From the sequence record OR352953.1: a stretch of 64,000 bases of DNA. One strand, 5' to 3'. Under the pieces are notes generated by a model. The model searched no databases. It was not told the DNA's origin and saw only the letters and a list, made by a program, of their open reading frames with translations. This DNA comes from Escherichia phage AV123. The translations under genes were made by a program, and so were the position numbers. Below are positions 12,895 to 37,719 of this stretch, one piece after another (within the stretch, counting starts at the first letter, position 1; each line of letters begins with the position of its first letter).

Positions 12895-13164
12895 CTAAAA
12901 TGATTCGTTTGTCTCCATAATATATTGCATTTCCAAATCTTCCATATGTTTCTTAAATTGGTAAACAATTTCCGATGGGGAAATATCTATATCAAAAAGT
13001 TCTTTTGTGCCAGAATAAAACCTAATACCATCAACAATAAGACCACCATAATAATCCCAATCACTTTCTCGTGAGAAAGGATTAGGTTCTTCATAATAGT
13101 AATCTACTTCAACAATAATAGGTTCTTTATTATCTTGTTTATACTCAAAATCAAAAGTGTTCAT
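12895..13164 (-). CDS. Hypothetical protein
   Basis: ORF in operon, overlaps neighbour by 1 nt. Confidence 0.45.
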   Translation of the reverse strand: MNTFDFEYKQDNKEPIIVEVDYYYEEPNPFSRESDWDYYGGLIVDGIRFYSGTKELFDIDISPSEIVYQFKKHMEDLEMQYIMETNESF

Positions 13165-14108
13165 TATAAATCCTCGATAAGCAGTCTGCGGGTTTCATTT
13201 AAATCATCAATATTGTAGTTATCTCTTACATACTTAGCAAGAGCCAATCCTTTCTCAATACAAACATCAGGAGATTCGATTAAGTATTCTACAATATCTT
13301 TCCACTCTTTAACTGAATCAGCAAAGAAGATTAGGTCTTTAAATTCTTCAGTATAATAGTTCTCTCGTGGTGAACAAACGAGTGGCAAACCTTTAGCACC
13401 AGCTTCAAGAATTTTTAAATTACTTTTGGCATTATTAAAATGATTATTTACCAATGGAGCTATGGAGATTTGATGACCATCGTATGCTTCCATATAACAT
13501 TCATAAGGACGAATACCTTCATAAACACAATCTGGTTGAATATCTTCTTTAATTTGCAACCATTGAGCACTACTTAACTCTTCGTGATCTCTACGAAATC
13601 CACATAAAGTTAAATCTTTACCAAAATCAGGAAGAATTGCTAAATCATGTTTATGTGTTTCACTTCCCGCCCAAACTAGTGGACTTTTAGAATAACGGTC
13701 TTTCGTAAGAACAAACTGTCCTTCATCAAAAGGTAATCCGTTAGGCACAATATGTACATTATCATTGTATTGGCTTAATTCAACCTTTAATGCCGGAGTT
13801 GTTGTAGTTACAAGATCGCTTCTTTCAAGGAACCATTTTAGGTCATCTCGGATTTGATTTTCAAATAGTCCTTCAAGCATATGCCCTTCAGGAATAATTA
13901 AAGAATCATCCAGATCCATTACCAATTTAAACCCAAGTTGTTTAAGAGCCAGGAAACCTGGCTTTCCACGTGTTGGTACTCCATTGAACACAAAAATATT
14001 ATGCTTAGGATTAATTGTCAGTTTGCGTTTATATGGCAAAATGATTCTATGAAAATCACATACACTATACTTTTCATTTCCGCGTGTGTCAAGAATAATA
14101 TTAGGCAT
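13164..14108 (-). CDS. Glycosyltransferase (GT-B fold, GT4-like)
   Basis: C-terminal KILEAGAKGLPLVCSP matches the GT4 E-x7-E region; paralog of adjacent gene. Confidence 0.6.
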   Translation of the reverse strand: MPNIILDTRGNEKYSVCDFHRIILPYKRKLTINPKHNIFVFNGVPTRGKPGFLALKQLGFKLVMDLDDSLIIPEGHMLEGLFENQIRDDLKWFLERSDLVTTTTPALKVELSQYNDNVHIVPNGLPFDEGQFVLTKDRYSKSPLVWAGSETHKHDLAILPDFGKDLTLCGFRRDHEELSSAQWLQIKEDIQPDCVYEGIRPYECYMEAYDGHQISIAPLVNNHFNNAKSNLKILEAGAKGLPLVCSPRENYYTEEFKDLIFFADSVKEWKDIVEYLIESPDVCIEKGLALAKYVRDNYNIDDLNETRRLLIEDL

Positions 14109-14119
14109 ATAACTCCTTG

Positions 14120-15094
14120 TTAAAGACTTTCAATAACTTGACGACGCAGTTCATTGGCATCTGCAAGATTATAATTAAGACGAACGTGTTCTGCAAGCAT
14201 CATACCACGATCTTCTGTGTATCTAGGGTTCCTCATTAGCTTGACAACTTCATAATGCCAAGATGCTTTAGAATCTGCATAGATAACAGCCTTTGCATCT
14301 ACCGGATTGAAGTACGGCAGCACAGGAGAACAGATAATAGGAAGACCCTTTGCACCTGCTTCCAAAATCTTCAAATTGCTTTTACAGTTGTTGAAGTCAT
14401 TATCTACCAGGGGAGCAATTGCAATACTGTGACCGTCATACACAGACATATACTCACCTAAATTTTTAATAGCTGGTTTATACTGTGCATTTGGAATTTT
14501 ACGTTTTATTTTAACCCACTCCGCAGTAGTTAGATACTGACTGTTATTTCCAACAGGTGCAGAAGGATACACTTCATACCCTGCAATTGTCAATAGTGTA
14601 TCATCAAATGTATTAGCTACAAGAGATAAATCAGGTTCGTGGCTTGCTCCTCCAGCCCAGATAATAGGCGTGTCAGAATTACGGTCTTTTGTCAAAGTAA
14701 ATTGACCTTCGTCGTAAGGTAGTGCGTTTCTAATAACGACAACATTACGATTTAAATGACGAATTTTGTAAGCTAGGTATTCTGTTGTTACAGTAACAAC
14801 ATCTGCTAACTTGACCATCTCTACAATAGTCTTTGAGTGATTAGTAAATACGCCAGCCATATAATGTTCAGGATTAAGTGAATAAAAATCATCTAAATCA
14901 ACAATAATCTTAACACCTTGTGCCTTCAGGCGTTTAACCTCGTCTGCTCCACGAGAATACACTCTATTAAAAACTAAAACGTCTTTCTTAGGTTTAAACG
15001 TATTTCCAGCAAATGGCATTACAATACGATGGTAATCACAACCACTGCCTAACTTATTATCACACTTAAGTACAGGAGTATTAGGATTTACCAT
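14120..15094 (-). CDS. Glycosyltransferase (GT-B fold), tandem paralog
   Basis: KILEAGAKGLPIICSP and YDGHSIAIAPLVDNDFNNCKSN parallel the upstream gene; start set at internal ATG with GAGGAGG RBS. Confidence 0.6.
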   Translation of the reverse strand: MVNPNTPVLKCDNKLGSGCDYHRIVMPFAGNTFKPKKDVLVFNRVYSRGADEVKRLKAQGVKIIVDLDDFYSLNPEHYMAGVFTNHSKTIVEMVKLADVVTVTTEYLAYKIRHLNRNVVVIRNALPYDEGQFTLTKDRNSDTPIIWAGGASHEPDLSLVANTFDDTLLTIAGYEVYPSAPVGNNSQYLTTAEWVKIKRKIPNAQYKPAIKNLGEYMSVYDGHSIAIAPLVDNDFNNCKSNLKILEAGAKGLPIICSPVLPYFNPVDAKAVIYADSKASWHYEVVKLMRNPRYTEDRGMMLAEHVRLNYNLADANELRRQVIESL

Positions 15095-15767
15095 ATTTTT
15101 GAGCCTCCTCATAAGAGATAAAAGTTTTACCATTGCGAAGATCCTCCAGTGATTGTTTATATTGTTCCCAGTTTACACCAATCCCCTGTTCTTTCTCTTC
15201 TTTTGACAGATTCGCAAAAGGTAAAGGATTGTCTCCAAATACATCATCAGGATGGATAAACGCCATAATTCGAATAGGACATGGCACGCCTTGAATACCT
15301 CGGTTCAAACCTGCCAGTGGAACGCGATGAATCCACTCTGCATCTTCATATCCATAACCGTGGGTGTATGAGCGGAAATAGCCAGCTTTCTCAATAACTG
15401 CACGGGAATACATACCAAACTGGCACATACCTAGTTCCCAAATAACCACTTCCCCTTCAATACCTTTTACTTTATCTTTAAAGTATTCAGGCATACCAAA
15501 GAAATCCCAACCATTTTCCTTCGCCTGTTTTACAAAATATGTTTCCCAACCTTGAACAACAGGATAGCAATCATCATCAAAAATAAACCAGTAATCATAC
15601 CCTTCATCATAAAACTTTTTCATCAGTTCATTACGAGCATATGCAACACCTTTTCGTTCCCGATCATACTGTACAACAAAAGTAGCATTAGGATCAGTCA
15701 CAAGATAATCTTTAAGAGGACGCTTACCTACAGTAATAACACCAACACCAATTTTTGTATTTTCCAA
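15081..15767 (-). CDS. Putative GT-A-like glycosyltransferase
   Basis: TTG start after AAGGAG; WFIFDDDCYP DxD-type motif. Confidence 0.45.
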   Translation of the reverse strand: MENTKIGVGVITVGKRPLKDYLVTDPNATFVVQYDRERKGVAYARNELMKKFYDEGYDYWFIFDDDCYPVVQGWETYFVKQAKENGWDFFGMPEYFKDKVKGIEGEVVIWELGMCQFGMYSRAVIEKAGYFRSYTHGYGYEDAEWIHRVPLAGLNRGIQGVPCPIRIMAFIHPDDVFGDNPLPFANLSKEEKEQGIGVNWEQYKQSLEDLRNGKTFISYEEAQKYGKS

Positions 15768-15776
15768 AATAACTCC

Positions 15777-16340
15777 TTAAATAATTTTATTCATGTCTTG
15801 ACAATGTAAAAGGTGTGAAATAGCTTTTCTAGGATCATCATTACCTAAACGGTATGTGTGAAATAAGTATAACCCACGTAGTAAACCTAGCCTTTTATTG
15901 TTAGCGTGTAATGCTTTAGAGAAAATTATATCAAACTGTATTGACCTTTCCTCAAAAGGGATTTCATTCCACAGACTCTTACGAAAGAGAAGAAAGAATC
16001 CTGCTAAGATAGCATCTGTAGGTACTTCCTCTATTGAGTTTCCCCATTCTAGATGTGCTCTTTTTGCAATCTCAATGTGGTGTAATATATTCGGATCTTC
16101 ACTTCTTTCATTATTAAATAATTGATATGTTGATCCCAATCTGTTACAAGATGCACCAAGAACATCAAAATCAGGATTTGAACGGACAATTGATTCCAGC
16201 CAAGCAGGTTGTTCTGGAAGAAGAAACATTGTATCAATGTCTCTTAGGCAAATCCAACTATCTTCTGGTAAGACACTTATTGTGTCATTGATACCTTTTC
16301 CAATATCTCCAGAAAGATAGGGAGTTATGTGAAATATCAT
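15777..16340 (-). CDS. Putative nucleotide-sugar glycosyltransferase-like protein
   Basis: GGAGGGAG RBS; LRDIDTMF DxD-like motif. Confidence 0.4.
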   Translation of the reverse strand: MIFHITPYLSGDIGKGINDTISVLPEDSWICLRDIDTMFLLPEQPAWLESIVRSNPDFDVLGASCNRLGSTYQLFNNERSEDPNILHHIEIAKRAHLEWGNSIEEVPTDAILAGFFLLFRKSLWNEIPFEERSIQFDIIFSKALHANNKRLGLLRGLYLFHTYRLGNDDPRKAISHLLHCQDMNKII

Positions 16341-18345: not shown

Positions 18346-18942
18346 TTACTCGAACCAATCGTCGCCAGCGCCAAACGCTTTAACTACATCATAAATGTCA
18401 AGTCCAGCTTTACCTACACCATATGCTTTCAGTTTCCATTCGCTATCTTCCCGCACCAGGGAGGCAACGTGGCAAATGGTATTACCTGCAAGTTCTGGAG
18501 CCAAGAAGTCAAAATCCAGCAGTTCAACGTTACGTTCATCATCGAAGATTTTAAGGAAACCTTCGGTAGCGTGACCAAGGCGTTTCTTACCCGTTTCGTC
18601 ATCAATAGTGATTACGAATGCAATTTCCTGTGCTTCAGCAGAGATATTATCCAGTGTAACATCAATCTGCTCCATTTGTCCTACACCGTCACGAACATCT
18701 TCACCTGCAAAAGTAGAACGTTCAGGATCAAATTTCTGTGCGTAGCATACCAGGTGGCGAGGAGACAACAGTTCCGGCAGACCAGATGCATTGTGTCGGC
18801 AAATCAGAGCACTAACATCCAGATCCAGTTTTTCGTTAGATTTCCAAGAGAATTCCAGACGAATGCGTTTCAGTGCTGGTGCAATCTTTTTCAGAGAAAC
18901 TTTTTCGCTAGAACCTTTTTTCAGGGAAATTTTCTGAGTCAT
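18346..18942 (-). CDS. TerD-family protein
   Basis: N-terminal ISLKKGSSEKVSLKK and acidic GEDVRDGVGQME region resemble TerD signatures; about 198 aa. Confidence 0.65.
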   Translation of the reverse strand: MTQKISLKKGSSEKVSLKKIAPALKRIRLEFSWKSNEKLDLDVSALICRHNASGLPELLSPRHLVCYAQKFDPERSTFAGEDVRDGVGQMEQIDVTLDNISAEAQEIAFVITIDDETGKKRLGHATEGFLKIFDDERNVELLDFDFLAPELAGNTICHVASLVREDSEWKLKAYGVGKAGLDIYDVVKAFGAGDDWFE

Positions 18943-19014
18943 AATTTATTATCTCCTTTGTTGTTAATTTACGTTGTCTATTTTACTAATCTTTTCTACA
19001 AAGTCAAGCGTTTT

Positions 19015-19809
19015 TTACGCTTTTGCTCCAAATTTTTTAACCCACTCGCCAAACTCTTCGGATAGCAGTTTATTGTAAAGTTCTTCGTCAGACAAGGACA
19101 AATCTGCAATACCGATAAAATCAACGTTATCGTATTCTTTTGCCAAGTCTTTCAGGAATTTAAAGTTTGCATTACCTACACCAACCATAAACCAGTAAAC
19201 AGGAGTGTTGCGGTGTTTGTTCAGCAAACTACGTACTGCTGAAGTATCCATGTTCTCCCCGTCAGTTTGGAAGAAAATCATTGCAGGAGTACGATCAACT
19301 TGTGCATCAGTATCTACAACCTGTTCTACAACAGTACGTGTAACTTCTACACGTTCTTTTTTACCAGTTAGTTTAGCAAGGAAACCCTTAGCCGGAACTT
19401 CTTCATACTCAACGACTTCGCGTGTAATATTTTTCATAGGTACACTACCGAAGTATGTATCATAGATCTCTTGCATTACTGGAGCATAAGCTGTACCACC
19501 ATTGATGCAAACATTAGACATACAAGAGCCGACATAATCATCATATACATCAGCCGTTGCAGGAGGCAGTTCAAAAGAAGAACTATTGAAAGCCCACATG
19601 TCAATCTGTGCATTATCATCAAACTTCATACCAAACGGCAGCAGCTTACCTACAAAATCACTGACAGTGCCATCACGATACAGCTCACACATACTACCCG
19701 AAATATCTAAGGCGCTACCTACACGAAGAACAACATCGTTAATCTTTTTCTTACGCAGGGATACAGTAAGAGTTTCTTGACGTTTTTTAAGACTGATTTT
19801 ATTGGACAT
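19015..19809 (-). CDS. vWA-domain protein (TerY-like)
   Basis: MIDAS motif DISGSM after a hydrophobic strand; TerD-like ISLKK N-terminus. Confidence 0.6.
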   Translation of the reverse strand: MSNKISLKKRQETLTVSLRKKKINDVVLRVGSALDISGSMCELYRDGTVSDFVGKLLPFGMKFDDNAQIDMWAFNSSSFELPPATADVYDDYVGSCMSNVCINGGTAYAPVMQEIYDTYFGSVPMKNITREVVEYEEVPAKGFLAKLTGKKERVEVTRTVVEQVVDTDAQVDRTPAMIFFQTDGENMDTSAVRSLLNKHRNTPVYWFMVGVGNANFKFLKDLAKEYDNVDFIGIADLSLSDEELYNKLLSEEFGEWVKKFGAKA

Positions 19810-19810
19810 A

Positions 19811-20080
19811 TTATTTCTCCTTTCTGACTGTAATGTTAGTAACTTCTAAATCCACTTCTACCACTTCTGTATCATATAAAATACAGTTAAGTTGACCTCT
19901 TTGTGAACCGTTCAGACACATTGCTTGGTTTGTATTAACCTTAATAAACACTAAGTTTCTGAACGTATCTAAACCAGCATCTTGATAGGCAACATAATAT
20001 ACGAATGTATCACCTGTGTCAAGTTCTCCAAAACATTTAGGTTCATCTGATTTGTCGTCTTTGATATTAAATTTAAGCAC
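19811..20080 (-). CDS. Hypothetical protein
   Basis: GTG start after AAGGAGA. Confidence 0.45.
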   Translation of the reverse strand: MLKFNIKDDKSDEPKCFGELDTGDTFVYYVAYQDAGLDTFRNLVFIKVNTNQAMCLNGSQRGQLNCILYDTEVVEVDLEVTNITVRKEK

Positions 20081-20636
20081 TGTCTTCTCCTTTACCTGCT
20101 CTCAAGCCTAAATAGAAAGCCTCTCTGGTGATCTTTTGCAACTCGTTTAAAGAGATAGTTACAACTAAATCATCTTCAATTTCTAGCTTTGAGTCTTCTT
20201 CTGTCTCAATGCAAGTATTATGCACTTTGTGGTAAGGATTGTCAACACGTTTAAATTTATTATTTTCAGTGCTGAAGAAGCAATCTGGATCTTCTTCCCC
20301 ATCACCCCAACCCTGGTTAGGATCTTCTTCAGATCTTTCTGTTGGGATCTCGCCTGTAAAGTGCTCTTCTAATACCAGAGCAATCCCATCTCCAAGATCG
20401 GAAGAGAACATCAAATTACAAACTTCTTCCCAAGGCATAGACCACTTAAATCTTTTACGATTGCCATGTTTATCTTCTTCGTTAGAGAAAACACTACCAT
20501 AGCTATCATAATTCCCATACATCTCTTCGACAACCTTACCACCTTTCAAAAGAAATAGGTAGCAAGGAGAGCCATCGAAAGAGGTAGAAAGAGCAGCATT
20601 ACCAGACTCTTTGCACAAGAAACTAAAACACCCCAT
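20073..20636 (-). CDS. Hypothetical acidic protein
   Basis: Start overlaps upstream stop (TAATG). Confidence 0.45.
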   Translation of the reverse strand: MGCFSFLCKESGNAALSTSFDGSPCYLFLLKGGKVVEEMYGNYDSYGSVFSNEEDKHGNRKRFKWSMPWEEVCNLMFSSDLGDGIALVLEEHFTGEIPTERSEEDPNQGWGDGEEDPDCFFSTENNKFKRVDNPYHKVHNTCIETEEDSKLEIEDDLVVTISLNELQKITREAFYLGLRAGKGEDSA

Positions 20637-20836
20637 TATACACCAGCCTTAAGATCAATTAAAGCCAAAGTTGTTTCAGAGTGTGTTTGCTCGTCTACAG
20701 GTGCAGTCATATGATAATACAAAAAATCTTCGGCATCATACCAATCTGATTCTTGACCTTGTTTCCAACCATCAATGAAAGCATCTTCCATAATGGTTTG
20801 CAATTCTTCACGAGTTAAGTGAATATCTTTACTCAT
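20636..20836 (-). CDS. Hypothetical protein
   Basis: Coupled ORF. Confidence 0.4.
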   Translation of the reverse strand: MSKDIHLTREELQTIMEDAFIDGWKQGQESDWYDAEDFLYYHMTAPVDEQTHSETTLALIDLKAGV

Positions 20837-21069
20837 TACACATTCTCCTCTTTTACCAATTCCATTGTTGAATTGTCAAAACCATCTTTAGAAGAATAGG
20901 TATAGACAGCACGTAGTTCTCGCAGGACAGTGAATACATTAGGATCATCTAACCAAGCATCCTGGAGGAGAACATAACGATCTTCATTGTCATACTGGAC
21001 AGCAATCATAGAGCCAGACAGTTTGTAAATTTTAATATTCATAATATATTTCTCCTTAAAGTAGACCAC
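20836..21069 (-). CDS. Hypothetical protein
   Basis: Coupled ORF. Confidence 0.4.
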   Translation of the reverse strand: MVYFKEKYIMNIKIYKLSGSMIAVQYDNEDRYVLLQDAWLDDPNVFTVLRELRAVYTYSSKDGFDNSTMELVKEENV

Positions 21070-22159
21070 GTTTAACAGTTTGAATCATACCATCTTCAAG
21101 AGATTGCACTTCTTGAATGTAATCAATACGAGCAGCACGGGCTTCAGTGTTGATTCGGTTAGTTTCTTCCAACATTTTAACTAAGTTTTCTTGATCACGA
21201 CGCAATGTTTCAATATCCAATACTTGACGATTAGCAAGTTGTGTAGCTTCAATCTGGTTTTGTGCAGCCAGATCACTACCCATTGCAATAGCAGCATTAA
21301 ATTCATTCAGTACGTTGTTCTGTGTATCGGCTGCTTTCTTCTGGCGCAGACTTTCAATATACATAGAAAAGTTTGCAGAGTAAGCAGGAATAACATTGTT
21401 CACAATATTACGGGCTGATCGCATCAAACTTGCAGATACTTTCTGCATACTTTGTACACGTGGCCCCATCTGAACGCACAGTAAGCGTAAGGCTTTCAGG
21501 TCTGCAATACGAATTTCAAGCAGATCCATAGTGTCACGAGTACGTTGACGCTCTTCTACTTCATTTTCAGGTAGTGTATTAAGGCGAACTTCTTCTTTTT
21601 CATAAGTAGCTGTTAGAAGCTCTATATCCCTGTTTAAGCTAAGAGCATATTTTGCAATAGCCTCCTCTAAACGTTGCAGATATCGTAAAGAATCTTCTTC
21701 TTTTTTCAAGTCTGTTTGGAGTGTCTTTACCAAACCCTCAATACGATTATTGATGGTGTCAAATTCTCCAAACAAATCTTCTTTCATACCTAATACTTTC
21801 TTAACTAACTTACCTAAACCTTTAGATTGTTTAATAGAATTAGGATCAAGTTGCTTTGCTTGCTTAATAAGTGCAGTTAAACGTTCACTCATTTCATCTC
21901 CCTGAGATGAACGCTGGTGTTTAAGCACTTCAGCATTAAGGTTACGAAGAGTAAGTCCTGCATCAGCACCAACTTGTTCAATCTCTTCACGAGACATTGG
22001 AGGCAGCATTTGTACAGGTCGTGCAACAGCAGGGGCATATACAGGACTTGCATCCATAGCACTTGGAGCAAACAAAGACTTACTTTTTTCTGTTGTTGCC
22101 GTGAATACACTCATTTCAGACGGTTTGCTTTTTACGGCACTGATAAAAGGACTGGACAT
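21056..22159 (-). CDS. Coiled-coil protein, possibly TelA-like
   Basis: 367 aa, extended heptad-rich helical regions; size and context within Ter-type cluster fit TelA/KlaB; no diagnostic motif seen. Confidence 0.4.
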   Translation of the reverse strand: MSSPFISAVKSKPSEMSVFTATTEKSKSLFAPSAMDASPVYAPAVARPVQMLPPMSREEIEQVGADAGLTLRNLNAEVLKHQRSSQGDEMSERLTALIKQAKQLDPNSIKQSKGLGKLVKKVLGMKEDLFGEFDTINNRIEGLVKTLQTDLKKEEDSLRYLQRLEEAIAKYALSLNRDIELLTATYEKEEVRLNTLPENEVEERQRTRDTMDLLEIRIADLKALRLLCVQMGPRVQSMQKVSASLMRSARNIVNNVIPAYSANFSMYIESLRQKKAADTQNNVLNEFNAAIAMGSDLAAQNQIEATQLANRQVLDIETLRRDQENLVKMLEETNRINTEARAARIDYIQEVQSLEDGMIQTVKRGLL

Positions 22160-22227
22160 TCAATTTCCTCCATATTCTTTAGTAGATGGTGATACCTCTG
22201 TACCACCATCATAACACAAATTAAGTA

Positions 22228-23079
22228 TTAAACAAACATATCTAAATAATTTGTAGTAATAAATGCTCCATCTGCTTCCAGATTAACATAACCAGTAGCA
22301 TTAGTGGTTAAGAAATCCAGATCGAAGGACTCTTTAACACCCCGTACCTCAACACGAGAGATATCGAATACAGGTAGTGTAACAGCCTCTTCGTGCAATA
22401 CCGTACCTTTGTAGGTTGCCTTAATGATAAACTTGATATTACCCGTTCCAGCATCATACAAAACACTTTCAAACCCTTTGAGAGTATATTTATCACCAGA
22501 AGTGAAGTGCAAAGTTGCTTTGTTTACAGTACGTTTTTTACGAGGAGTTCCTTTCACACGTTTATGATCACTACGTTTTTTGTACTTAGGAATGAATACA
22601 AACGATACATTCTGAAGAAAGGTATCAACATCAAGGATTTTAATATCCTCTGTTGCAGCAAATTTTGAAGTCGTTGCATCAAAATGCTTTTCCCTGCGAT
22701 CATACATAAAGATATCAAACCGATCTTCTAAATCAAACAAATTATGTATTTTAATTTCAGAATGCTTGCGCATTGCAGCAACCTTGAACTCTTCAAAACG
22801 TGGGTGTTCTACAAGTTCTTCAAGTTTTACACCAAAGACAGTATATTGCTTCGGAGTTTTTTCTGGTGTTGGCATTACAGAAGCATAATCCCCGATTGCG
22901 CTCTTAAAGCAAAATTGTTCTTGACCTGTATTTTTACCAACGAATTTACAGTATTCATCATTGTGCATACTTTCCTTAGTAGTACCAACAAACTCAAAAC
23001 CATCTTTATTCTTCTCAAGAATTTCTTGATTAAAGATCCAACCTTCCAGGTGATATACTTTACCAACTTCTAGTTTCAT
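22228..23079 (-). CDS. Hypothetical protein
   Basis: AAGGAG RBS. Confidence 0.5.
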   Translation of the reverse strand: MKLEVGKVYHLEGWIFNQEILEKNKDGFEFVGTTKESMHNDEYCKFVGKNTGQEQFCFKSAIGDYASVMPTPEKTPKQYTVFGVKLEELVEHPRFEEFKVAAMRKHSEIKIHNLFDLEDRFDIFMYDRREKHFDATTSKFAATEDIKILDVDTFLQNVSFVFIPKYKKRSDHKRVKGTPRKKRTVNKATLHFTSGDKYTLKGFESVLYDAGTGNIKFIIKATYKGTVLHEEAVTLPVFDISRVEVRGVKESFDLDFLTTNATGYVNLEADGAFITTNYLDMFV

Positions 23080-23114
23080 CTGTTTCTCCTTCTTATTTAA
23101 TCTGTATTAAATTA

Positions 23115-23720
23115 TTAACGACGACGTGAGCTACTAAAACTACGTTTCGACGAAGAATAACTTTTCGAAGACTTACTATAAGAGCTAATAGGACTTGAGT
23201 AAGACTTACGAGCAGAGTAATCACTATTCACTTTTGTTGTTGACGGGCGTGAATACGTTTGTACACTTTGCTGCTTAATTGTGTTTTGTTTAGTGGTTGT
23301 ATATGTATTCCCTTGTTTATCATAAAAACGATGCTTTTGTGTTGTATATGCTTTACTATTAGTTGTAGGAGCAGCGTTGTTATTGATAATTGTTGTATTG
23401 CTACCGCCATCTCTATAACCACCACCGCCACTATTACCACTCAACATATGACCAAGAAGCATACCTGTAGCAAACTCACCTACACCAGAAGAACCACTGC
23501 CGCCTCCTTGCACAACAACTGTTGAAGGTTGTGCAGGTGCTGCTTGAACAACTTGAGGTGCAGGCTGATTTACATATTGTTCATCTACCATCTGATTTGG
23601 TGTTTGTTGGTAACGTTGATTTTGTACATTTTCAGAATCATCACAACCTACCAGCAATGCACTACCTAAAACAACTGCAACAATAAAAGATTTAATGTTT
23701 TTCATTTGTAACCCTCTCAT
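23115..23720 (-). CDS. Putative lipoprotein with low-complexity Q-, G- and S/Y-rich regions
   Basis: Signal peptide with lipobox LVGC; C-terminal YSSPISSYSKSSKSYSSSKRSFSSSRRR. Confidence 0.55.
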   Translation of the reverse strand: MRGLQMKNIKSFIVAVVLGSALLVGCDDSENVQNQRYQQTPNQMVDEQYVNQPAPQVVQAAPAQPSTVVVQGGGSGSSGVGEFATGMLLGHMLSGNSGGGGYRDGGSNTTIINNNAAPTTNSKAYTTQKHRFYDKQGNTYTTTKQNTIKQQSVQTYSRPSTTKVNSDYSARKSYSSPISSYSKSSKSYSSSKRSFSSSRRR

Positions 23721-23898
23721 TTAAAGTCTCAACACAATTTTTAAAATCCCTAGAGAAACAATACATCTGTTCTCCGTTCCTGTTGATAGTAATTGTATGG
23801 TTATCAATGTATGTTGTCAAGATAAAAATCAAACAAAATAACCCTAAAGCAAAACAAATATTTTCAAACAGAATCCAAAGAACACGTAAAACTACCAT
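23692..23898 (-). CDS. Small hydrophobic protein (tentative)
   Basis: GAGGTGA RBS; fills otherwise empty gap upstream of lipoprotein gene. Confidence 0.3.
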   Translation of the reverse strand: MVVLRVLWILFENICFALGLFCLIFILTTYIDNHTITINRNGEQMYCFSRDFKNCVETLNERVTNEKH

Positions 23899-23937
23899 CA
23901 GATCACCTCAACAAAGCCCCCGAAGGGGCTTAATGAA

Positions 23938-24915
23938 TTAAGCAACAGTCTGGTCTTCTTTTTCAGGGAAGATTAAACTTGCAATAACACCCAACCCAAG
24001 AGTACCTAACACAATATACATACTGATCGTCGGATCAATGTGTGCTGGCAGGAAACTCATTTTTGCGTGCAGAGTTTCTGCAAACGGGTGATACATCAGT
24101 TTTACACCCACAAATACCAGGACTACGATAACTGCTTTCTCCAGATGAACCAAATACTTCAGTGCAACACTAAGAACAAAGAACAGAGCACGTAAACCTA
24201 AGATTGCACAGAGCATCGAAGAGAACACCAGTAGAGGTTCTTGTGTCACTGCAATTACTGCTGGAACAGAGTCTACTGCAAAGATTACGTCAACCATTTC
24301 CATTACAAACACACAAACCAGAGCCGGAGTTGCTACACGAACACCATTTTTGATTGTGAAGAACTTCTCACCATCCATCTGATCAGATACAGGGAACAGC
24401 TTACGAACAATGCGAGTAGCCCAGTGTTTAGAGTAATCAACTTCTGCATCATTATCTCCAGCGAATACCATTTTAGCCGCACAGAAAAGGATGACAGCAC
24501 CGAAGAAGATATTAACATACCAGCCCAAACTCAACAAGTAAGTACCTACTGCTACAAACACACCTCGGAAGACAATCGCACCTGCAATACCCCAAAGTAG
24601 AATCTTGTGCTGCAAGTGTGTGCTTTTAATACCAAAACTTGCGAAGACTGCCACAAATACTACTAAGTTATCTACAGAAAGAGATTTCTCCAACACATAC
24701 CCACTCAAAAACAAGCTCGCAAAATCAGCACCGTGTTGGAAGTATACAAAACCATAGTAGGCTAATGATACCCCAATCCAGAAAATTGACCAGCCAATTG
24801 CAGATTTAAATGAAATTTCTTTGTTTTCTCTGTGTCCAAAGAAGTCAATACAAATCGACAAGACTAAAATACCCACTAAAACAACCACATCAATAATTGG
24901 GAAACCCAGTTGCAT
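23938..24915 (-). CDS. TerC-family integral membrane protein
   Basis: Multi-pass hydrophobic profile; LEKSLSVDN matches the TerC E-x-SLS-x-DN motif. Confidence 0.75.
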   Translation of the reverse strand: MQLGFPIIDVVVLVGILVLSICIDFFGHRENKEISFKSAIGWSIFWIGVSLAYYGFVYFQHGADFASLFLSGYVLEKSLSVDNLVVFVAVFASFGIKSTHLQHKILLWGIAGAIVFRGVFVAVGTYLLSLGWYVNIFFGAVILFCAAKMVFAGDNDAEVDYSKHWATRIVRKLFPVSDQMDGEKFFTIKNGVRVATPALVCVFVMEMVDVIFAVDSVPAVIAVTQEPLLVFSSMLCAILGLRALFFVLSVALKYLVHLEKAVIVVLVFVGVKLMYHPFAETLHAKMSFLPAHIDPTISMYIVLGTLGLGVIASLIFPEKEDQTVA

Positions 24916-24933: not shown

Positions 24934-24952
24934 GCGGAGGACAATCCTCCGC
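24934..24952 (-). terminator. Hairpin
   Basis: GCGGAGGACAATCCTCCGC. Confidence 0.45.
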
Positions 24953-24992
24953 TCTATGTCTTATACTATAAACTGTTTTTAAAGAAAGTCAA

Positions 24993-25241
24993 CTAGTTCA
25001 GTTCTGTAATTTTAAGTTTATCTTCTTTGTTAATGACAGGGAAAGCTACAGCATCACCTACGTCATCAATAAAGCAAATAGCAATACCACCTTCCACTTT
25101 GCTAATCTGACCATTAAAGGCGTGATACGGGGCAGGAACTTGATCTCCATCTTCAAGGAGAATAGCCTCGTAAACCTTGCCGATAGTACAATCACGAGTG
25201 TTTCTAAATTTTTCAAGCACTTCAACATTTACTTTACGCAT
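24993..25241 (-). CDS. Hypothetical protein
   Basis: GAGAGGA RBS. Confidence 0.45.
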   Translation of the reverse strand: MRKVNVEVLEKFRNTRDCTIGKVYEAILLEDGDQVPAPYHAFNGQISKVEGGIAICFIDDVGDAVAFPVINKEDKLKITELN

Positions 25242-25255
25242 ATAAAAATCCTCTC

Positions 25256-25462
25256 TTATTTGTTAGATTGAAAGATACCACGAAGTACCGCAAGAATGAA
25301 CGTCACACAGACTACACTCCAAAACGTTACAGGAACATGATGCCAGTCTAAGCCGATAATGTCAATCATATAGTTGTATGCTAAAAGCAGTAGCCAACTA
25401 GGGATTAACACAATCAAAAACACAACAATAAAACAACCTAATACTGCTAAAACACCTGCCAT
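25256..25462 (-). CDS. Small membrane protein
   Basis: AAGGAG RBS; two hydrophobic helices. Confidence 0.45.
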   Translation of the reverse strand: MAGVLAVLGCFIVVFLIVLIPSWLLLLAYNYMIDIIGLDWHHVPVTFWSVVCVTFILAVLRGIFQSNK

Positions 25463-25471: not shown

Positions 25472-26188
25472 TTATTTCAGTTTGTAAACAATTACATTTA
25501 AACCTTTGTTTACTAGAGTTTCTTCGATCATAAGTTTTACAATACTCCAAGAACCTCCAGCCAAACCACAACCAAGCATTGGTAAACCTACAATTTTACC
25601 GCCTGAAGATACAACATCGTCTCCCATACTATCTAACGCATTGTAGATAGCTTCATAATTCAGGTCACGCTTACCTTCCTCACGACGACTATAACCATAT
25701 TGTCCATATAAATTATAAATTGTCAAATTGTTTTCTGTATACTTAGTAAACGTACCTAATTTTTTATAATCACCACGTTTAGTGGCACAATCTGCTTTAA
25801 ACGCACCAGGCCACTTACTTTTAATTTTTGGTGCAATACCACTACCCATAGTGCAAAAACAGTTACAGCAGTGTGCTATAGCGTCTATATCGCCTCTCTC
25901 GGCTGCTGCTAAAAGATCACCGTATACCTCAATGATACCTGCTGGATAACTTGTTACAATTTCATCTTCCCAGTACATTTTCTCTACACCACCGATCAGT
26001 GCAAAGTTTTGTGTAATGCGATCATCAATATAGTTAAGACCTGAAACATACACAGCATATTCATCCTGTGCTGTAATACCTTGTACACGAATTCTTAAGA
26101 CACCATCTTTATCTGTTGCTACACGCCCAAAATCTTTTTCTGTAATATTGGTGATAGGATCTCCGAAAGTCATTACTTTATTAGACAT
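25472..26188 (-). CDS. Macro-domain protein (OARD1/TARG1/Poa1-like ADP-ribose processing)
   Basis: IAHCCNCFCTMGSGIA and LPMLGCGLAGGSWSIV...VIVYKL parallel the H-x-C-N...G-x-GIA and GCGLD...VYTL motifs of that macro family; start ATG overlaps upstream stop (ATGTCTAA). Confidence 0.7.
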   Translation of the reverse strand: MSNKVMTFGDPITNITEKDFGRVATDKDGVLRIRVQGITAQDEYAVYVSGLNYIDDRITQNFALIGGVEKMYWEDEIVTSYPAGIIEVYGDLLAAAERGDIDAIAHCCNCFCTMGSGIAPKIKSKWPGAFKADCATKRGDYKKLGTFTKYTENNLTIYNLYGQYGYSRREEGKRDLNYEAIYNALDSMGDDVVSSGGKIVGLPMLGCGLAGGSWSIVKLMIEETLVNKGLNVIVYKLK

Positions 26189-27038
26189 AATAATCCCCTT
26201 TAACATTAGATTTGTTGATAATGTTGCTTTCAAAAAATTGACGTAGGAAATCAAAGTTCTCTTTATATTTTTCAATGTTATTGTAGCCTTCTGCAAGGCA
26301 ACCAAAGAACAGTTGTTCTACATAATACAAAGGAAGCTGTGAAAGTGCAATTTTAAAATCAACTTCGCTTTGACTCATTAGATACTTAATAGGACGAACC
26401 AAACATTTAGCATCAGTTTCTTGCTTAATCATCTTAATAAAAGCTGCCAGGTTATTGATATAGTTGAAGTTAAGTGCAGCTTCGGTGTTGGCTTCTGTAC
26501 CTTCATACTTTGCAAAGTACAGGAAAAACGTATCGTTTTCAACACCTTCTTTGTCTAAAATTTCAATAAGTTTTTCTTCGTGCGTTCCTGTAATATTAAC
26601 ATCATCAATGAAAATCAGAGTTTTATTACCCCAGAAATCACGATTGATAGAGAAAGTGTCACCATCGATCAAAGCCTTACGATCTTCTTTGCTAAGAAAT
26701 CCATAATCATTGATATAGCTCACTTTACGATGAACGATATCCCACTCCACTGGTTTACCACCTTTGATAGAGATTAGGTAGTTGAGGTGATCTACAAAAT
26801 GTTCAGATAACACTGTAGCTGCATTTTTCACATAGTTATATGGAGATGGAATAACAACAAAACTTTCATTTACCAGTCGTTCTTCATACTTGGAAAAGAA
26901 ACTTTCAGCCAGAATGCGCCCCATTCTTTTTGCTGCCTGGTTACTACCAAACTTTAGTTTGGAATAATCTGCAATGTTAAATTTTGCTTCCTTCAGGTTA
27001 GTAAAAGTATTAGCAAAATGTTGAATTTGATTACGCAT
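26181..27038 (-). CDS. Phosphoribosyltransferase-like protein
   Basis: TLIFIDDVNITGTHEE resembles the type I PRTase PRPP-binding loop. Confidence 0.5.
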   Translation of the reverse strand: MRNQIQHFANTFTNLKEAKFNIADYSKLKFGSNQAAKRMGRILAESFFSKYEERLVNESFVVIPSPYNYVKNAATVLSEHFVDHLNYLISIKGGKPVEWDIVHRKVSYINDYGFLSKEDRKALIDGDTFSINRDFWGNKTLIFIDDVNITGTHEEKLIEILDKEGVENDTFFLYFAKYEGTEANTEAALNFNYINNLAAFIKMIKQETDAKCLVRPIKYLMSQSEVDFKIALSQLPLYYVEQLFFGCLAEGYNNIEKYKENFDFLRQFFESNIINKSNVKGDYYV

Positions 27039-27687
27039 TAATAAGTTCCTCTTTTTTAAGTTTAGCCAACAAGTCTTCTGGATTAATAATATGACAGAAC
27101 TTCATCCCTATGTCAACAGCTTTTCCATCATAAATCAAACTATCTCCAACGTGTAAAATCTCCTCTGGTGCGAGATCAAACGTCACCATTTCATCAAAAG
27201 AGAGTTTAAAAAACCTAGGATCTGGTTTACACAAGCAAAACTCGTCAGAAAAATGCATAAAGTCGAATGGTAATTTTGTTAAACCAGAATATACAGCTAA
27301 GAAACTACCTGGTACAAAATTAGTATTGCTCTTAATACTCAAAGAGTAGGTTGAACTTAGCTCTTCCAACTTCTTGCAAAGTTCAGGATTCAATGTTGGA
27401 GGATGTTTTATAAACATTGCCAAACAATCTCTTTTTAACCCATCCACTTTATCAAGATCAATGTTCAAACGAGTAGAAAGTGTTACCCAAGCATCCTTAG
27501 ACGTTCCACAAATGCCTTTTTCTGCTTTTAAATCCAAGAGAGTTTTTACCTCTTTATATACGGTAGCTGCTTCTGCCTCAGAACAAGAGGCATACTCGGC
27601 AATAACCTTGTTACGCTCTTCTGCATACAAAGGGTTAGCAGTAATAAGAGTATTCCATACATCAAAAGAAATATGCTTAACAGTCAT
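27031..27687 (-). CDS. HAD-superfamily hydrolase-like protein
   Basis: ISFDVWNTLI (motif I-like) and HVGDSLIYD (motif IV-like); start set at MTVKH after GGAGG. Confidence 0.5.
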   Translation of the reverse strand: MTVKHISFDVWNTLITANPLYAEERNKVIAEYASCSEAEAATVYKEVKTLLDLKAEKGICGTSKDAWVTLSTRLNIDLDKVDGLKRDCLAMFIKHPPTLNPELCKKLEELSSTYSLSIKSNTNFVPGSFLAVYSGLTKLPFDFMHFSDEFCLCKPDPRFFKLSFDEMVTFDLAPEEILHVGDSLIYDGKAVDIGMKFCHIINPEDLLAKLKKEELINA

Positions 27688-28066: not shown

Positions 28067-28089
28067 AAAGGAGGCTTTCGCCTCCTTTT
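28067..28089 (-). terminator. Hairpin terminator
   Basis: AAAGGAGGCTTTCGCCTCCTTTT. Confidence 0.6.
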
Positions 28090-36637: not shown

Positions 36638-37003
36638 TTAAACGTTTTCTAAATCTTTTAAGGCATTACCCAACGTTAGAACAATAACATCATTTGCTGC
36701 CTCTTCCCCATTGATATTGGTGAAATTTGGTGTTACAAAAGTAACCATATAAAACTCGTCCACCTGGAAGATAGCAATAACACCATCCATCTTAACATCT
36801 TGACGAAAGGAAAAACCAATCATCTTCTCTTGCAAAGGCATATCCCCTTCCTTCATTACTGCCAGGGAGTCTTCAGGAATGTTATATTTATCTGCTCCGA
36901 TGTAGATGTATGTAATGTTATCTTTATCGTGATGATACAGGGTTGCTTTTTCCATATCTAAACCTGACAGATCAAATACGTTAATTTCTTGTGTAGTCTT
37001 CAT
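36638..37003 (-). CDS. Hypothetical protein
   Basis: Start set at MKTTQE with GGGAGGA RBS. Confidence 0.45.
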   Translation of the reverse strand: MKTTQEINVFDLSGLDMEKATLYHHDKDNITYIYIGADKYNIPEDSLAVMKEGDMPLQEKMIGFSFRQDVKMDGVIAIFQVDEFYMVTFVTPNFTNINGEEAANDVIVLTLGNALKDLENV

Positions 37004-37367
37004 AAATATCCTCCCAAATCCAATAATCATCTGTGTAAGTAGGATGCCTTTTATCCCACTCTGTTCTAGCCCAAGCAACCGCTGCTACCAACACATCACC
37101 ATGACAAGGTTGAGGTGCGCAGAAGCAAACTAAGTCTTTCCCTTCTAATTCTAACAAATCCTCAAGAGTGATTTTACCACAACGAATTTGTTCCCACAAC
37201 CACTCTTTATATCTTTGTATAGTTGACCCTCGTGGTTCATCATCCTTTAACTTAAAAGGATTTGCAAACTTTGAGGCTTTTAACCCCATATGAGGCATAG
37301 CTCTGCCAATGTAAACTGCACCTTCAGGTATTACTTTACCTAAGTGGTAAAAATTTAATACTTTCAT
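36981..37367 (-). CDS. Hypothetical protein, DUF4326-like motif pattern
   Basis: YIGR...NPF and GKDLVCFCAPQPCHGDVL; start ATG one nt after upstream stop. Confidence 0.35.
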   Translation of the reverse strand: MKVLNFYHLGKVIPEGAVYIGRAMPHMGLKASKFANPFKLKDDEPRGSTIQRYKEWLWEQIRCGKITLEDLLELEGKDLVCFCAPQPCHGDVLVAAVAWARTEWDKRHPTYTDDYWIWEDIYEDYTRN

Positions 37368-37368
37368 A

Positions 37369-37719
37369 TTAACCCAAACACATCTGTGCAATCAAGCCCT
37401 GTATAAATTTATTAGCTTCTTTACTGTCGTAGTCAGTCTCTTCTGGATATCCATCTTCATCGTACACAACTGTACCTTCAATATACCCTGCCTCAATTAA
37501 GGCGCGGATCATATCAAATTGCCAGCATGAGTTACCAAATGGACGTTTACCATTAAAACACTCTTCTTCTCTCCATAACGTAGAGAGTAGTTGTCGGAAA
37601 TATTCCCGTACAGTGACAGTACCAAGATCTGAATCCTCAAACATAACATCCAAGGCATCAGGATTGCTTTTCTCTACATAAGGAATATATTTAACACCAT
37701 TAATAGTTACATCAAGCAT
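37369..37719 (-). CDS. Hypothetical protein
   Basis: AAGGAGAAA RBS. Confidence 0.45.
   Translation of the reverse strand: MLDVTINGVKYIPYVEKSNPDALDVMFEDSDLGTVTVREYFRQLLSTLWREEECFNGKRPFGNSCWQFDMIRALIEAGYIEGTVVYDEDGYPEETDYDSKEANKFIQGLIAQMCLG

What the first reader, a model, noticed from the sequence alone, without database searches (positions are those of the whole stretch)
25472..27687. Overlapping macro-domain / PRTase / HAD operon next to the Ter cluster
Three consecutive, translationally coupled genes encode an OARD1/TARG1-type macro domain, a phosphoribosyltransferase-like protein and a HAD-like hydrolase. Established work on Ter systems describes linkage to PRTase/HAD biosynthetic modules predicted to make nucleoside-like metabolites, and macro domains process ADP-ribose derivatives. 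The set could make or degrade an ADP-ribose or NAD-related molecule, which is an obvious route to counter NAD-depleting or ADP-ribosylating host defences. That function is inference.
Basis: partly seen in the sequence, partly recalled or inferred. Interest (0 to 1): 0.8.

Follow-up and report, generated by a model that had tools for sequence, protein, structure and literature searches.

The report
Phage macrodomain beside a HAD–PRTase cassette
The three overlapping genes are real, but they look like two separate units: a likely remover of ADP-ribose from phage DNA, related to a T4 anti-defence protein, and an inseparable hydrolase–phosphoribosyltransferase pair of still-unknown chemistry that travels with tellurite-resistance (Ter) genes in many large phages.

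Summary
The window is a phi92-like E. coli myophage (Justusliebigvirus, 98–99% identical to Bas61/EmilieFrey). On the minus strand lie HAD (27031–27687), PRTase_3 (26181–27038) and a macrodomain protein (25472–26188). They are joined by two 8-nt ATGnnTAA overlaps, and the macro gene ends 557 nt upstream of the TerC start.

The "one three-enzyme pathway" reading is only partly supported.
- **HAD–PRTase_3 pair.** The two genes are adjacent in all 23 PRTase lineages examined: diverse large phages, rhizobial plasmids and Bacteroidota. They also occur as single HAD–PRTase_3 chains. Ter genes lie within 10 kb in 14 of the 23 lineages.
- **Macrodomain.** It is adjacent in only 5 lineages, all close relatives (PRTase at least 65% identical). 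Its family occurs in about 3,000 phage records, against 156 for the PRTase.
- **Macrodomain type.** It is TARG1/DarG/SCO6735-like with the SCO6735-type Gln, not TARG1's Lys/Asp pair. It is homologous to T4 Tk.4/AdfM, a reported anti-DarTG2 factor (30% identity, E 1e-17).

Best reading: an orphan DNA de-ADP-ribosylase sits next to the predicted Ter "nucleoside-like metabolite" module. The product of that module is unknown. Its HAD has an invariant Trp where phosphatases carry their general acid.

All three genes are already annotated in GenBank and match published predictions: a new member of known kinds, of moderate interest.

The parts
27031..27687 (-). HAD-fold hydrolase, 218 aa (phi92 gp187 orthologue). 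REG-2/PH0253-like, with motif I FDVWNT: Asp nucleophile present, Trp at the D+2 general acid/base position.
   Evidence: PF00702 E 1.2e-5. Profile against PDB gives 2om6 at E 3.7e-19 and HDHD3 3k1z at 4.7e-7. Motif alignment over 40 loci. Start and stop read.
26181..27038 (-). PRTase_3 (ComF-like type I phosphoribosyltransferase), 285 aa (phi92 gp186 orthologue), with the PRPP-loop motif LIFIDDVNITGTH.
25472..25933 (-). Macrodomain (residues 86–238 of the 238-aa protein; phi92 gp185 orthologue). TARG1/DarG/SCO6735 class, T4 Tk.4/AdfM family. Putative ADP-ribosyl glycohydrolase.
   Evidence: PDB sequence hits: 5e3b 1.2e-15, 2fg1 2.4e-15, TARG1 1.6e-10, DarG 4e-4. Foldseek TARG1 TM 0.90. T4 Tk.4 E 1e-17. 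DarG models E ~1e-13. N109 and Q163 invariant in 58 homologues.
25934..26188 (-). N-terminal ~85-residue extension of the macro protein. It is homologous to the N-domain of a separate MazG-like pyrophosphatase gene that sits between PRTase and macro in related phages (an in-frame fusion). Its fold is unknown.
   Evidence: BLASTP against L007 184-aa ORF E 6e-7, L012 1e-5, L009 against L007 1e-10. L007 ORF matches phrog_1247 'MazG-like pyrophosphatase' at 1.7e-23. AF2 pLDDT below 50 for residues 1–80.
28067..28088 (-). Terminator-like hairpin after the AAA ATPase gene. It marks the likely upstream boundary of the unit.
   Evidence: Annotated as a terminator in phage Paula.
27690..28060 (-). Two small ORFs (67 aa and 51 aa) between the terminator and HAD, in the same gene string.
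   Evidence: phrog_17780 and phrog_24275, function unknown.
24993..25462 (-). Two small ORFs (68-aa hydrophobic, possibly membrane-associated; 82-aa) between macro and the TerC promoter.
   Evidence: phrog_16065 and phrog_17459. The hydrophobic character is read from the translation, not tested.
24934..24992 (-). Sigma70-like promoter (TTGACT-16-TATAGT) followed by an 8-bp GC-rich hairpin in the TerC 5' leader. TerC appears to have its own promoter.
18346..24915 (-). Ter cluster: TerC 23938–24915, TelA 21056–22159, vWA-TerF 19015–19809, TerD 18346–18942, with interspersed unknown ORFs.
   Evidence: Pfam E 5e-34, 1.4e-38 and 5e-28. TerC by homology to PF03741-bearing orthologues.

Best explanation
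The locus holds two functional modules that one phage subfamily has packed into one tightly coupled gene string.

**Module 1: HAD plus PRTase_3.** This is an obligate two-protein enzyme system. It belongs to the Ter (TerC/TelA/vWA-TerF/TerD) network. The PRTase binds PRPP and transfers ribose-5-phosphate to an unidentified acceptor. The HAD partner then carries out the coupled phosphoryl step. It either dephosphorylates the product to a nucleoside-like molecule (the published prediction) or, given its missing general acid, hydrolyses a better leaving group such as pyrophosphate. The product is inferred to be a small-molecule ligand or signal for the Ter proteins during infection.

**Module 2: the macrodomain protein.** This is an orphan DarG-like ADP-ribosyl glycohydrolase of the T4 Tk.4/AdfM family. 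It most likely strips ADP-ribose from thymidine in phage DNA modified by host DarT2. That would complement the NADAR anti-DarTG1 enzyme reported for this phage lineage.

**Shown:** gene structure, domain and fold identities, conserved motifs, the strict HAD–PRTase pairing and fusions, and the lineage-restricted macro adjacency.
**Inferred:** all substrates, the product, and both biological roles.
For: **Pairing.** HAD lies immediately upstream of PRTase_3 in 23 of 23 PRTase lineages clustered at 85% identity. These include T4-like and jumbo phages, Rhizobium/Ensifer plasmids and Bacteroidota. No third universal neighbour was found.

**Fusions.** Single-chain HAD–PRTase_3 proteins exist in the same order (P0262, P0281, P0372, P0258).

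**Ter link.**
- Ter genes lie within 10 kb in 14 of 23 lineages.
- TerD directly follows the PRTase in L003, L014 and L020, and vWA-TerF follows it in L022.
- The P0281 fusion sits between TerD and vWA-TerF.
- The published prediction is in PMC7824862.

**PRTase competence.** Type I fold with an intact DDxxITGTH PRPP loop.

**Macro.**
- Adjacent only in 5 closely related lineages.
- Family present in 2,985 of 50,697 phage records, against 156 for the PRTase.
- Homologous to T4 Tk.4 (E 1e-17), which the HIDEN-SEQ preprint names AdfM and shows to be needed on DarTG2 hosts.
- Its closest solved relative, SCO6735, cleaves thymidine-linked ADP-ribose and needs Gln85. The window protein has Gln at that position, and it is invariant in 58 homologues.
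- Bas60–62 carry the NADAR AdfN, active against DarTG1 but not DarTG2.
Against: - No biochemical or genetic test exists for any of the three proteins in this phage family.
- The two 8-nt overlaps, and the persistence of macro next to the PRTase across Justusliebigvirus and Phapecoctavirus-like phages, fit a shared function as well as mere packing. In some relatives a MazG-like nucleotide pyrophosphatase sits between them.
- Macrodomains of this class also hydrolyse O-acetyl-ADP-ribose and protein-linked ADP-ribose, so DNA is not the only candidate substrate.
- The window macro is only 30% identical to AdfM, and the AdfM evidence comes from a preprint.
- The HAD lacks the D+2 Asp that 5'-nucleotidases use (Trp, near-invariant). 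This weakens the classical "NMP to nucleoside" step.
- Nine of 23 lineages show no Ter gene within 10 kb. The rhizobial plasmids carry the pair alone. The pair can therefore work without adjacent Ter genes.
Confidence: 0.6

Rival explanations
1. One pathway. HAD, PRTase_3 and macro, with MazG in relatives, act in sequence on one ADP-ribose- or NAD-related small molecule. They would rebuild NAD or destroy an ADPr-derived immune signal, countering Thoeris, SIR2 or other NADase defences.
For: - Both gene junctions show translational coupling.
- The PRTase–macro neighbourhood is conserved throughout Stephanstirmvirinae-like phages.
- A MazG-like pyrophosphatase lies between them in relatives.
- A DUF4326 ADPr-network domain lies elsewhere in the window.
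- An NMN-transporter gene lies about 10 kb from the cassette in L007.
- Phage macrodomains have been proposed to process soluble ADPr derivatives.
Against: - Macro is absent from 18 of 23 cassette lineages, and the macro family is about 20 times more widespread than the cassette.
- HAD–PRTase fusions never included a macro in the 10 long chains scanned.
- The PRTase matched only PF15610 in Pfam and has a type I ComF-like fold. From general knowledge, the NAD-salvage PRTases are type II.
- No NAD-synthesis family was found among the roughly 40 window proteins scanned.
Confidence: 0.12
2. The HAD–PRTase_3 pair does not make a signal. It is a ShosT-like manipulator of the PRPP and purine pool. 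The PRTase consumes PRPP, and the HAD partner hydrolyses the released pyrophosphate to pull the reaction. The phage would use this for host takeover or to exclude competing phages.
For: - ShosT fuses a HAD-like pyrophosphatase to a PRTase, and the two activities are coupled (PMC11961720).
- The cassette also occurs as HAD–PRTase fusions.
- The HAD lacks the D+2 general acid. That loss is easier to tolerate with a good leaving group such as phosphate from PPi (the chemistry is inference).
- The pair stands alone on rhizobial plasmids.
Against: - The HAD profile search of PDB sequences did not list the ShosT entry 8zvb.
- The tight operonic link to TerD and vWA-TerF in many phages is not explained by pool depletion.
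- Neither protein matches any PADLOC defence model.
Confidence: 0.15
3. The macro protein is a housekeeping clean-up enzyme for ADP-ribose-1''-phosphate or O-acetyl-ADP-ribose, by-products of RNA repair or sirtuin activity. It would not be an anti-DarT factor.
For: - The family is annotated 'phosphatase / A1pp' in T4 and in PHROGs.
- Cassette-bearing phages often carry RNA ligase, 2H and CCA-adding genes nearby.
- TARG1-class enzymes hydrolyse OAADPr (the depositors' name for 4j5q).
Against: - T4 Tk.4 knockout is specifically sensitised to DarTG2.
- SCO6735, which shares the Gln-type site, cleaves thymidine-linked ADP-ribose and rescues cells from DarT toxicity.
- No KptA/Tpt1 or sirtuin was found among the window proteins scanned.
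Confidence: 0.12

Closest known systems
T4 Tk.4 / AdfM (anti-DarT factor Macrodomain; HIDEN-SEQ preprint 10.1101/2025.11.20.689424)
   Same: Stand-alone phage macrodomain of the same family (30% identity over 139 aa, E 1e-17). It shares the conserved HCxNC…MGSG, Y-x-Q and GxGxxxG-W motifs and has no DarT partner.
   Different: The window protein carries an extra ~85-residue N-terminal domain derived from a MazG-like gene. It sits next to PRTase_3/HAD rather than tk/vs genes. No phenotype has been measured.
SCO6735 (Streptomyces coelicolor; PDB 5e3b) and BT1257 (2fg1)
   Same: These are the best solved-structure sequence matches (E ~1e-15). Gln replaces the TARG1/DarG catalytic Lys, Ala replaces TARG1 Asp125, and the Asn and GCGLAGG loop are conserved.
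   Different: They are bacterial chromosomal proteins. SCO6735's Val25 position is Cys in the window protein. Activity on thymidine-linked ADP-ribose is shown only for SCO6735.
DarG antitoxin of DarTG2
   Same: The macrodomain is homologous (E ~1e-13 to the DarG models; Foldseek hits 5m3e and 5m31).
   Different: There is no C-terminal DarT-binding domain and no catalytic Lys. The score of 49 bits is far below the 250-bit equivalog cut-off. No DarT gene is adjacent.
Ter-system PRTase/HAD 'nucleoside-like metabolite' module (Anantharaman, Iyer & Aravind 2012; in phages, Iyer et al. 2021, PMC7824862)
   Same: The PRTase is a PF15610 member, paired with a HAD protein and linked to TerD, TelA, TerC and vWA-TerF.
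   Different: This is a minimal two-gene version. No ATP-grasp or TIM-barrel family was found among the window proteins scanned with Pfam. This PRTase/HAD subfamily is mostly phage-borne and gave no tblastn hit in enterobacterial ter plasmids. The HAD has DxWxT in place of DxDxT.
ShosT toxin of the ShosTA defence system (PDB 8zvb)
   Same: It couples a HAD-like hydrolase to a PRPP-binding PRTase, and the acceptor is unknown in both cases.
ComFC (H. pylori, PDB 7p0h)
   Different: Identity is 12%. ComFC is a competence protein (depositors' name). PRTase_3 has a ~90-residue C-terminal helical domain, and the HAD pairing seen here is specific to this family.

Membership tests
Macrodomain, ALC1-like class (TARG1/DarG/SCO6735) | Macro fold whose closest relatives lie in this class | tested here: met
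   PF01661 at 31 bits against a 22-bit cut-off. PDB sequence hits 5e3b, 2fg1, TARG1 and DarG. Foldseek TARG1 TM 0.90 with model pLDDT above 90 for residues 85–238.
TARG1/OARD1 proper | Catalytic Lys84/Asp125 dyad | tested here: not met
   In the HMMER alignment to 4j5q, window Gln163 aligns with Lys84 and Ala with Asp125 (GCGLAGG against GCGLDRL).
SCO6735-type DNA ADP-ribosyl hydrolases | Gln at the Lys80/84 position, plus the conserved Asn and Gly-rich phosphate-binding loop | tested here: met
   IYNLYGQYG aligns with VANMIGQHG. N109, Q163, G206 and G212 are invariant in 58 homologues. The requirement for Gln85 comes from PMC9411070.
SCO6735-type DNA ADP-ribosyl hydrolases | Hydrolysis of thymidine-linked ADP-ribose on ssDNA | not testable with these tools
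   Needs an enzyme assay.
AdfM (T4 Tk.4) anti-DarTG2 factors | Sequence homology to T4 Tk.4 | tested here: met
   BLASTP E 1e-17, 30% identity over 139 aa. tk.4-annotated hits in RB14, JS10 and phage 133.
AdfM (T4 Tk.4) anti-DarTG2 factors | Needed for plaquing on DarTG2 hosts | not testable with these tools
   Genetic test only. Shown for T4 in a preprint.
DarG antitoxin (NF048014) | Full-length match with the C-terminal DarT-binding domain and an adjacent DarT gene | tested here: not met
   49 bits against a 250-bit cut-off. Only model positions 4–147 of 338 match. The neighbouring genes are PRTase_3 and small ORFs.
Ter-associated PRTase_3 (PF15610) | Match above the Pfam gathering score | tested here: met
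   143 bits against 28.7, covering model positions 14–264 of 264.
Ter-associated PRTase_3 (PF15610) | Type I PRTase fold with an acidic-pair/TG-T PRPP loop | tested here: met
Ter-associated PRTase_3 (PF15610) | Genomic linkage to Ter genes | tested here: met
   In the window the macro stop lies 557 nt from the TerC start. Ter genes lie within 10 kb in 14 of 23 lineages.
Ter-associated PRTase_3 (PF15610) | Phosphoribosyl transfer to a defined acceptor | not testable with these tools
   The acceptor is unknown for the whole family.
Full Ter biosynthetic module (several PRTases, ATP-grasp, TIM-barrel lyase, HAD) | Presence of the accessory ATP-grasp or TIM-barrel enzymes (component list recalled from Anantharaman et al. 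2012, which could not be read here) | tested here: not met
   Pfam scans of about 40 window proteins found none. Only HAD and one PRTase are present.
HAD phosphatases | Motif I DxDx(T/V), with the D+2 Asp as general acid/base | tested here: not met
   Motif I is FDVWNT. The Asp nucleophile is kept. D+2 is Trp in nearly all of 40 cassette homologues (Tyr in one) and in the fused chains.
HAD phosphatases | Motifs II (S/T), III (K) and IV (acidic pair) | tested here: met
   SNTNF, (A/C/S)KP and HVGDxxxxD are conserved.
Phage NAD-reconstitution pathways (NARP1/NARP2; definition from memory of Osterman et al. 2024) | NAMPT-like (type II) PRTase with an ADPR-pyrophosphokinase or NMNAT partner | tested here: not met
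   The PRTase has a type I ComF-like fold. The three proteins gave no Pfam match beyond Macro, PRTase_3 and HAD families.

The most novel reading that the evidence does not exclude
The HAD–PRTase_3 pair is a single bipartite enzyme whose HAD half is not a nucleotidase: the D+2 general acid is replaced by an invariant Trp. It would make or consume a previously undescribed phosphoribosyl compound that TerD or vWA-TerF proteins sense. In Stephanstirmvirinae, the adjacent macro domain (and MazG in relatives) would process the same molecule. The whole string would then be a phage-encoded small-molecule signalling or anti-signalling pathway, not two unrelated modules.
Probability: 0.12. Interest if true: 0.75.

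Novelty: new member of a known kind. Interest (0 to 1): 0.4.

Why it matters
- **Macro.** If it is confirmed as an anti-DarTG2 enzyme, phi92-like phages would carry matched erasers for both DNA ADP-ribosylation chemistries: NADAR for guanine and macro for thymine. That bears on phage-therapy host range in E. coli.
- **HAD–PRTase_3 pair.** This is the more open question. The product of the Ter-linked PRTase/HAD module has been a prediction since 2012. Here it appears as a compact two-gene cassette, sometimes a single chain, in a lytic E. coli phage of the BASEL collection (Bas61). That makes a convenient starting point for identifying the metabolite and testing whether Ter proteins bind it.

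Tried and rejected
**Searches that found nothing or were unavailable.**
- PDB sequence searches with PRTase_3, as a single sequence and as a 70-sequence profile, found nothing significant. Fold comparison was needed.
- Searching the macro N-terminal extension in the 5.8-billion-protein index returned only fragments of itself. Its homology was found by pairwise comparison with neighbouring ORFs instead.
- The AF2 model of the extension has low confidence, so no fold is assigned.
- A regex hunt for a NADAR gene in the window found nothing. The AdfN gene of this lineage was therefore not located.
- Anantharaman et al. 2012 is not held, nor are the AdfN paper's supplements. The Ter prediction is cited through Iyer et al. 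2021 and Vornhagen et al. 2021.

**Ideas considered and rejected.**
- Membership in DarG proper: no C-terminal domain, and the score is far below the cut-off.
- TARG1-type catalysis: the Lys/Asp dyad is absent.
- NARP-like NAD rebuilding: wrong PRTase class.
- A PADLOC-listed defence system for HAD/PRTase: no hits.
- A third universal partner of the cassette: clustering ORFs within 6 kb gave only antisense shadow ORFs and Ter genes.
- Homology to the enterobacterial ter-plasmid PRTase/HAD genes: no tblastn hits.
Full report
**What the window is.** The 3.1 kb around the finding is 98–99% identical to 67 phage records. Almost all are Escherichia phages of the genus Justusliebigvirus (phi92-like, Stephanstirmvirinae), including the BASEL phage Bas61/EmilieFrey and phage Paula. 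In those records the three genes are already annotated. Bas61 calls them "putative macrodomain protein", "putative phosphoribosyltransferase" and "putative HAD-like superfamily protein". Paula calls them "phosphatase / orotate PRTase / hydrolase", as orthologues of phi92 gp185–187.

**Observation.** All three ORFs lie on the minus strand. From the sequence itself:
- HAD starts at ATG 27687 behind a GGAGGA.
- Its TAA overlaps the PRTase ATG (27038) in ATGCGTAA.
- The PRTase TAA overlaps the macro ATG (26188, behind AAAGGGGA) in ATGTCTAA.
- Macro ends at 25472.

So the coordinates and the "translationally coupled" description are correct. Transcription order is HAD, then PRTase, then macro.

The string begins after a hairpin-plus-T terminator at 28088–28067. 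It includes two small upstream ORFs and two small downstream ORFs. It ends at a sigma70-like promoter (TTGACT-16-TATAGT, 24992–24965) that precedes TerC. TerC, TelA, vWA-TerF and TerD follow on the same strand.

**The macrodomain.**
- *Pfam and structures.* Pfam Macro matches residues 106–217. The best solved-structure relatives by sequence are SCO6735 (5e3b, 1.2e-15), BT1257 (2fg1, 2.4e-15), human TARG1 (1.6e-10) and DarG (4e-4).
- *Profile models.* PADLOC and NCBIfam DarG models match only their macro part, at about 1e-13 and far below the DarG cut-off.
- *Predicted fold.* An AF2 model is confident for residues 85–238 (pLDDT above 90). It superposes best on TARG1 (TM 0.90), BT1257, DarG and SCO6735.
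- *Catalytic residues.* In the alignments, TARG1 Lys84 corresponds to Gln163 and Asp125 to Ala. The same Gln is in SCO6735, where Gln85Ala abolishes activity and the enzyme removes DarT-made thymidine ADP-ribose from DNA (PMC9411070). Asn109 and Gln163 are invariant in 58 homologues.
- *Link to T4.* The protein is homologous to T4 Tk.4 (30% identity, E 1e-17). A 2025 preprint names Tk.4 AdfM and shows that T4 needs it on DarTG2 hosts.
- *Prevalence.* The family is very common: tblastn finds it in 2,985 of 50,697 phage records. This agrees with the published estimate that about 40% of medium-sized phages carry a macrodomain.
- *Complementary enzyme.* Bas60–62 also encode a NADAR, AdfN^Bas60, that neutralises DarTG1 but not DarTG2. 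A thymidine-directed eraser would fill that gap. This last step is inference.

**The N-terminal extension.** Most homologues are about 150 aa. Only the Justusliebigvirus protein and one 53%-identical relative (L009) carry about 85 extra N-terminal residues.
- These residues are homologous to the N-domain of a separate 184–215-aa ORF that lies between PRTase and macro in related ~150-kb phages L007, L012 and L013 (E 6e-7, 1e-5, 1e-10).
- That ORF matches phrog_1247, "MazG-like pyrophosphatase" (1.7e-23). Its C-terminal half carries the acidic helices typical of MazG (my reading of the sequence).
- In the window lineage the MazG half is gone and its N-domain is fused in frame to macro.
- A third arrangement, PRTase directly followed by a short macro, occurs in L015.
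- The AF2 model of the extension is unreliable (pLDDT below 50).

**PRTase_3.**
- PF15610 matches end to end (143 bits).
- No solved structure is detectable by sequence.
- The PRPP-loop signature LIFIDDVNITGTH is invariant at D145, D146, T150, G151 and H153 across 70 sequences down to 31% identity.
- A profile search of 1.84 billion representatives finds 857 family members.
- Among annotated collections this subfamily occurs in 156 phage records: Stephanstirmvirinae, Klebsiella FBKp34, Rhizobium T4-like phages, Caulobacter and Brevundimonas jumbo phages, and Xanthomonas XaC1.
- Among plasmids it occurs only in 17 records: 16 rhizobial (Rhizobium/Sinorhizobium) and one Hymenobacter. It is absent from enterobacterial ter plasmids.

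**HAD.**
- The protein is HAD-fold. Its profile matches 2om6 at 3.7e-19, then PH1655, HDHD3 and haloacid dehalogenases.
- Motifs II to IV are canonical (SNTNF, KP, HVGDxxxxD).
- Motif I is FDVWNT. The Asp nucleophile is present, but the D+2 general acid/base Asp of phosphatases is Trp.
- This holds in nearly all 40 cassette homologues and in fused chains.
- The classical "dephosphorylate the NMP" step is therefore less secure than the literature implies. What the Trp means chemically is inference.

**Are the three genes one unit?** I collected 47 loci from metagenomes, IMG/VR, GTDB genomes and GenBank and annotated them with window-derived queries.
- At 85% PRTase identity there are 23 lineages.
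- HAD lies immediately upstream of PRTase_3 in 23 of 23.
- Ter genes lie within 10 kb in 14.
- Macro is adjacent in 5, all close relatives of the window phage. One further locus has a macro 6 kb away.
- No other gene family is shared across lineages.
- In L003, L014 and L020, TerD directly follows the PRTase. In L022, vWA-TerF does.
- On Rhizobium plasmid pRL10 the pair stands alone near repA.
- Single polypeptides with HAD at the N-terminus and PRTase_3 at the C-terminus exist (P0262, P0281, P0372), as does a PRTase–HAD–PRTase_3 chain (P0258).
- P0281 sits between TerD and vWA-TerF.

This is strong comparative evidence that HAD and PRTase_3 work together and with Ter proteins. It also shows that the macro is a lineage-specific neighbour.

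**Mechanism, with levels of support.**
- *Shown:* gene structure, folds, motifs, pairing and fusions.
- *From established knowledge of the families:* a type I PRTase with an intact PRPP loop binds a 5-phosphoribosyl donor, and Gln-type ALC1-like macrodomains hydrolyse the C1'' linkage of ADP-ribose, including N3-thymidine.
- *Inferred:* the macro removes DarT2 marks from phage DNA. The pair makes a ribosylated small molecule that Ter proteins sense. The HAD step is either product dephosphorylation or, by analogy with ShosT (a HAD-like pyrophosphatase fused to a PRTase), pyrophosphate removal that pulls the transfer.

**Novelty and score.** The arrangement is real and conserved, but each part maps onto a described kind and is already annotated.

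The contributions here are:
- the strict two-gene (and fused) nature of HAD–PRTase_3;
- its DxWxT motif;
- its mostly phage-borne distribution;
- the MazG-to-macro fusion history;
- the assignment of the macro to the AdfM/SCO6735 type rather than TARG1 proper.

The unknown product of the Ter-linked pair remains an open problem that this phage could help solve. That keeps interest moderate rather than low.

Noticed in passing
window 36981-37391 (-): DUF4326 protein (PF14216, E 1.8e-21). Iyer, Burroughs and Aravind 2022 describe DUF4326 as a rhodanese-phosphatase clade often fused to Macro, NADAR and SLOG domains, predicted to trim terminal phosphates of ADP-ribose derivatives. This is a second ADPr-network gene about 11 kb from the macro gene.
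   Followed up: partly
window 13164-16340 (-): Four glycosyltransferase-like genes directly downstream of the Ter cluster. The one at 15081-15767 gives a sub-threshold hit to TAGT (TET-associated DNA glycosyltransferase, E 3.9e-5, 24 bits against a 27.5-bit cut-off). Whether they target DNA or a surface sugar is not known.
   Followed up: no
window 24934-24992 (-): A sigma70-like promoter (TTGACT-16-TATAGT) is followed about 10 nt later by a perfect 8-bp GC-rich hairpin (GCGGAGGA-TTGT-CCTCCGC) inside the short TerC leader. There is no T-run on the coding strand. Phage Paula annotates it as a plus-strand terminator.
   Followed up: partly
GenBank MG065639, MG065645, MG065656, MG065689, MG065672 (hits H20-H23, H51): Four records labelled 'Campylobacter phage' (host C. 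jejuni; MG065639, MG065645, MG065656, MG065689) are 98.4% identical to this E. coli phage over the 3.1-kb locus, with genomes of about 146 kb; a fifth such record (MG065672, ~141 kb) carries a more distant homologue of the macro gene. The host labels are probably wrong.
   Followed up: no
P0271, P0299, P0315, P0358, P0384; L045 1222-3795: Chains of 550–1150 aa match the PRTase_3 profile in two or three stretches, and the three scanned (P0271, P0299, P0358) also carry a generic Pribosyltran domain. In L045 a PRTase_3 gene lies directly upstream of a HAD–PRTase_3 fusion. This suggests multi-PRTase assemblies like the larger bacterial Ter modules.
   Followed up: partly
L039 9905-10838; plasmids CP090199 and CP090115: In some Ensifer and Rhizobium replicons the PRTase_3 gene is split into two ORFs or annotated twice. 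It is a likely pseudogene, so the stand-alone cassette is not maintained everywhere.
   Followed up: no
window 23115-23720 (-): A Ser/Gly/Asn-rich 201-aa ORF with a lipoprotein-like signal (…LLVGCDD) recurs next to Ter genes in L005, L007, L009 and L018. It may be an unrecognised envelope component of phage Ter clusters.
   Followed up: no
L004 7152-8555; L005 10967-12562: In T4-like contigs that lack Ter genes within 10 kb, the HAD–PRTase_3 pair lies next to a DUF2828/DUF7788 protein and near RNA ligase, 2H and CCA-adding genes. I recall DUF2828 as vWA-related, but this was not checked here.
   Followed up: no
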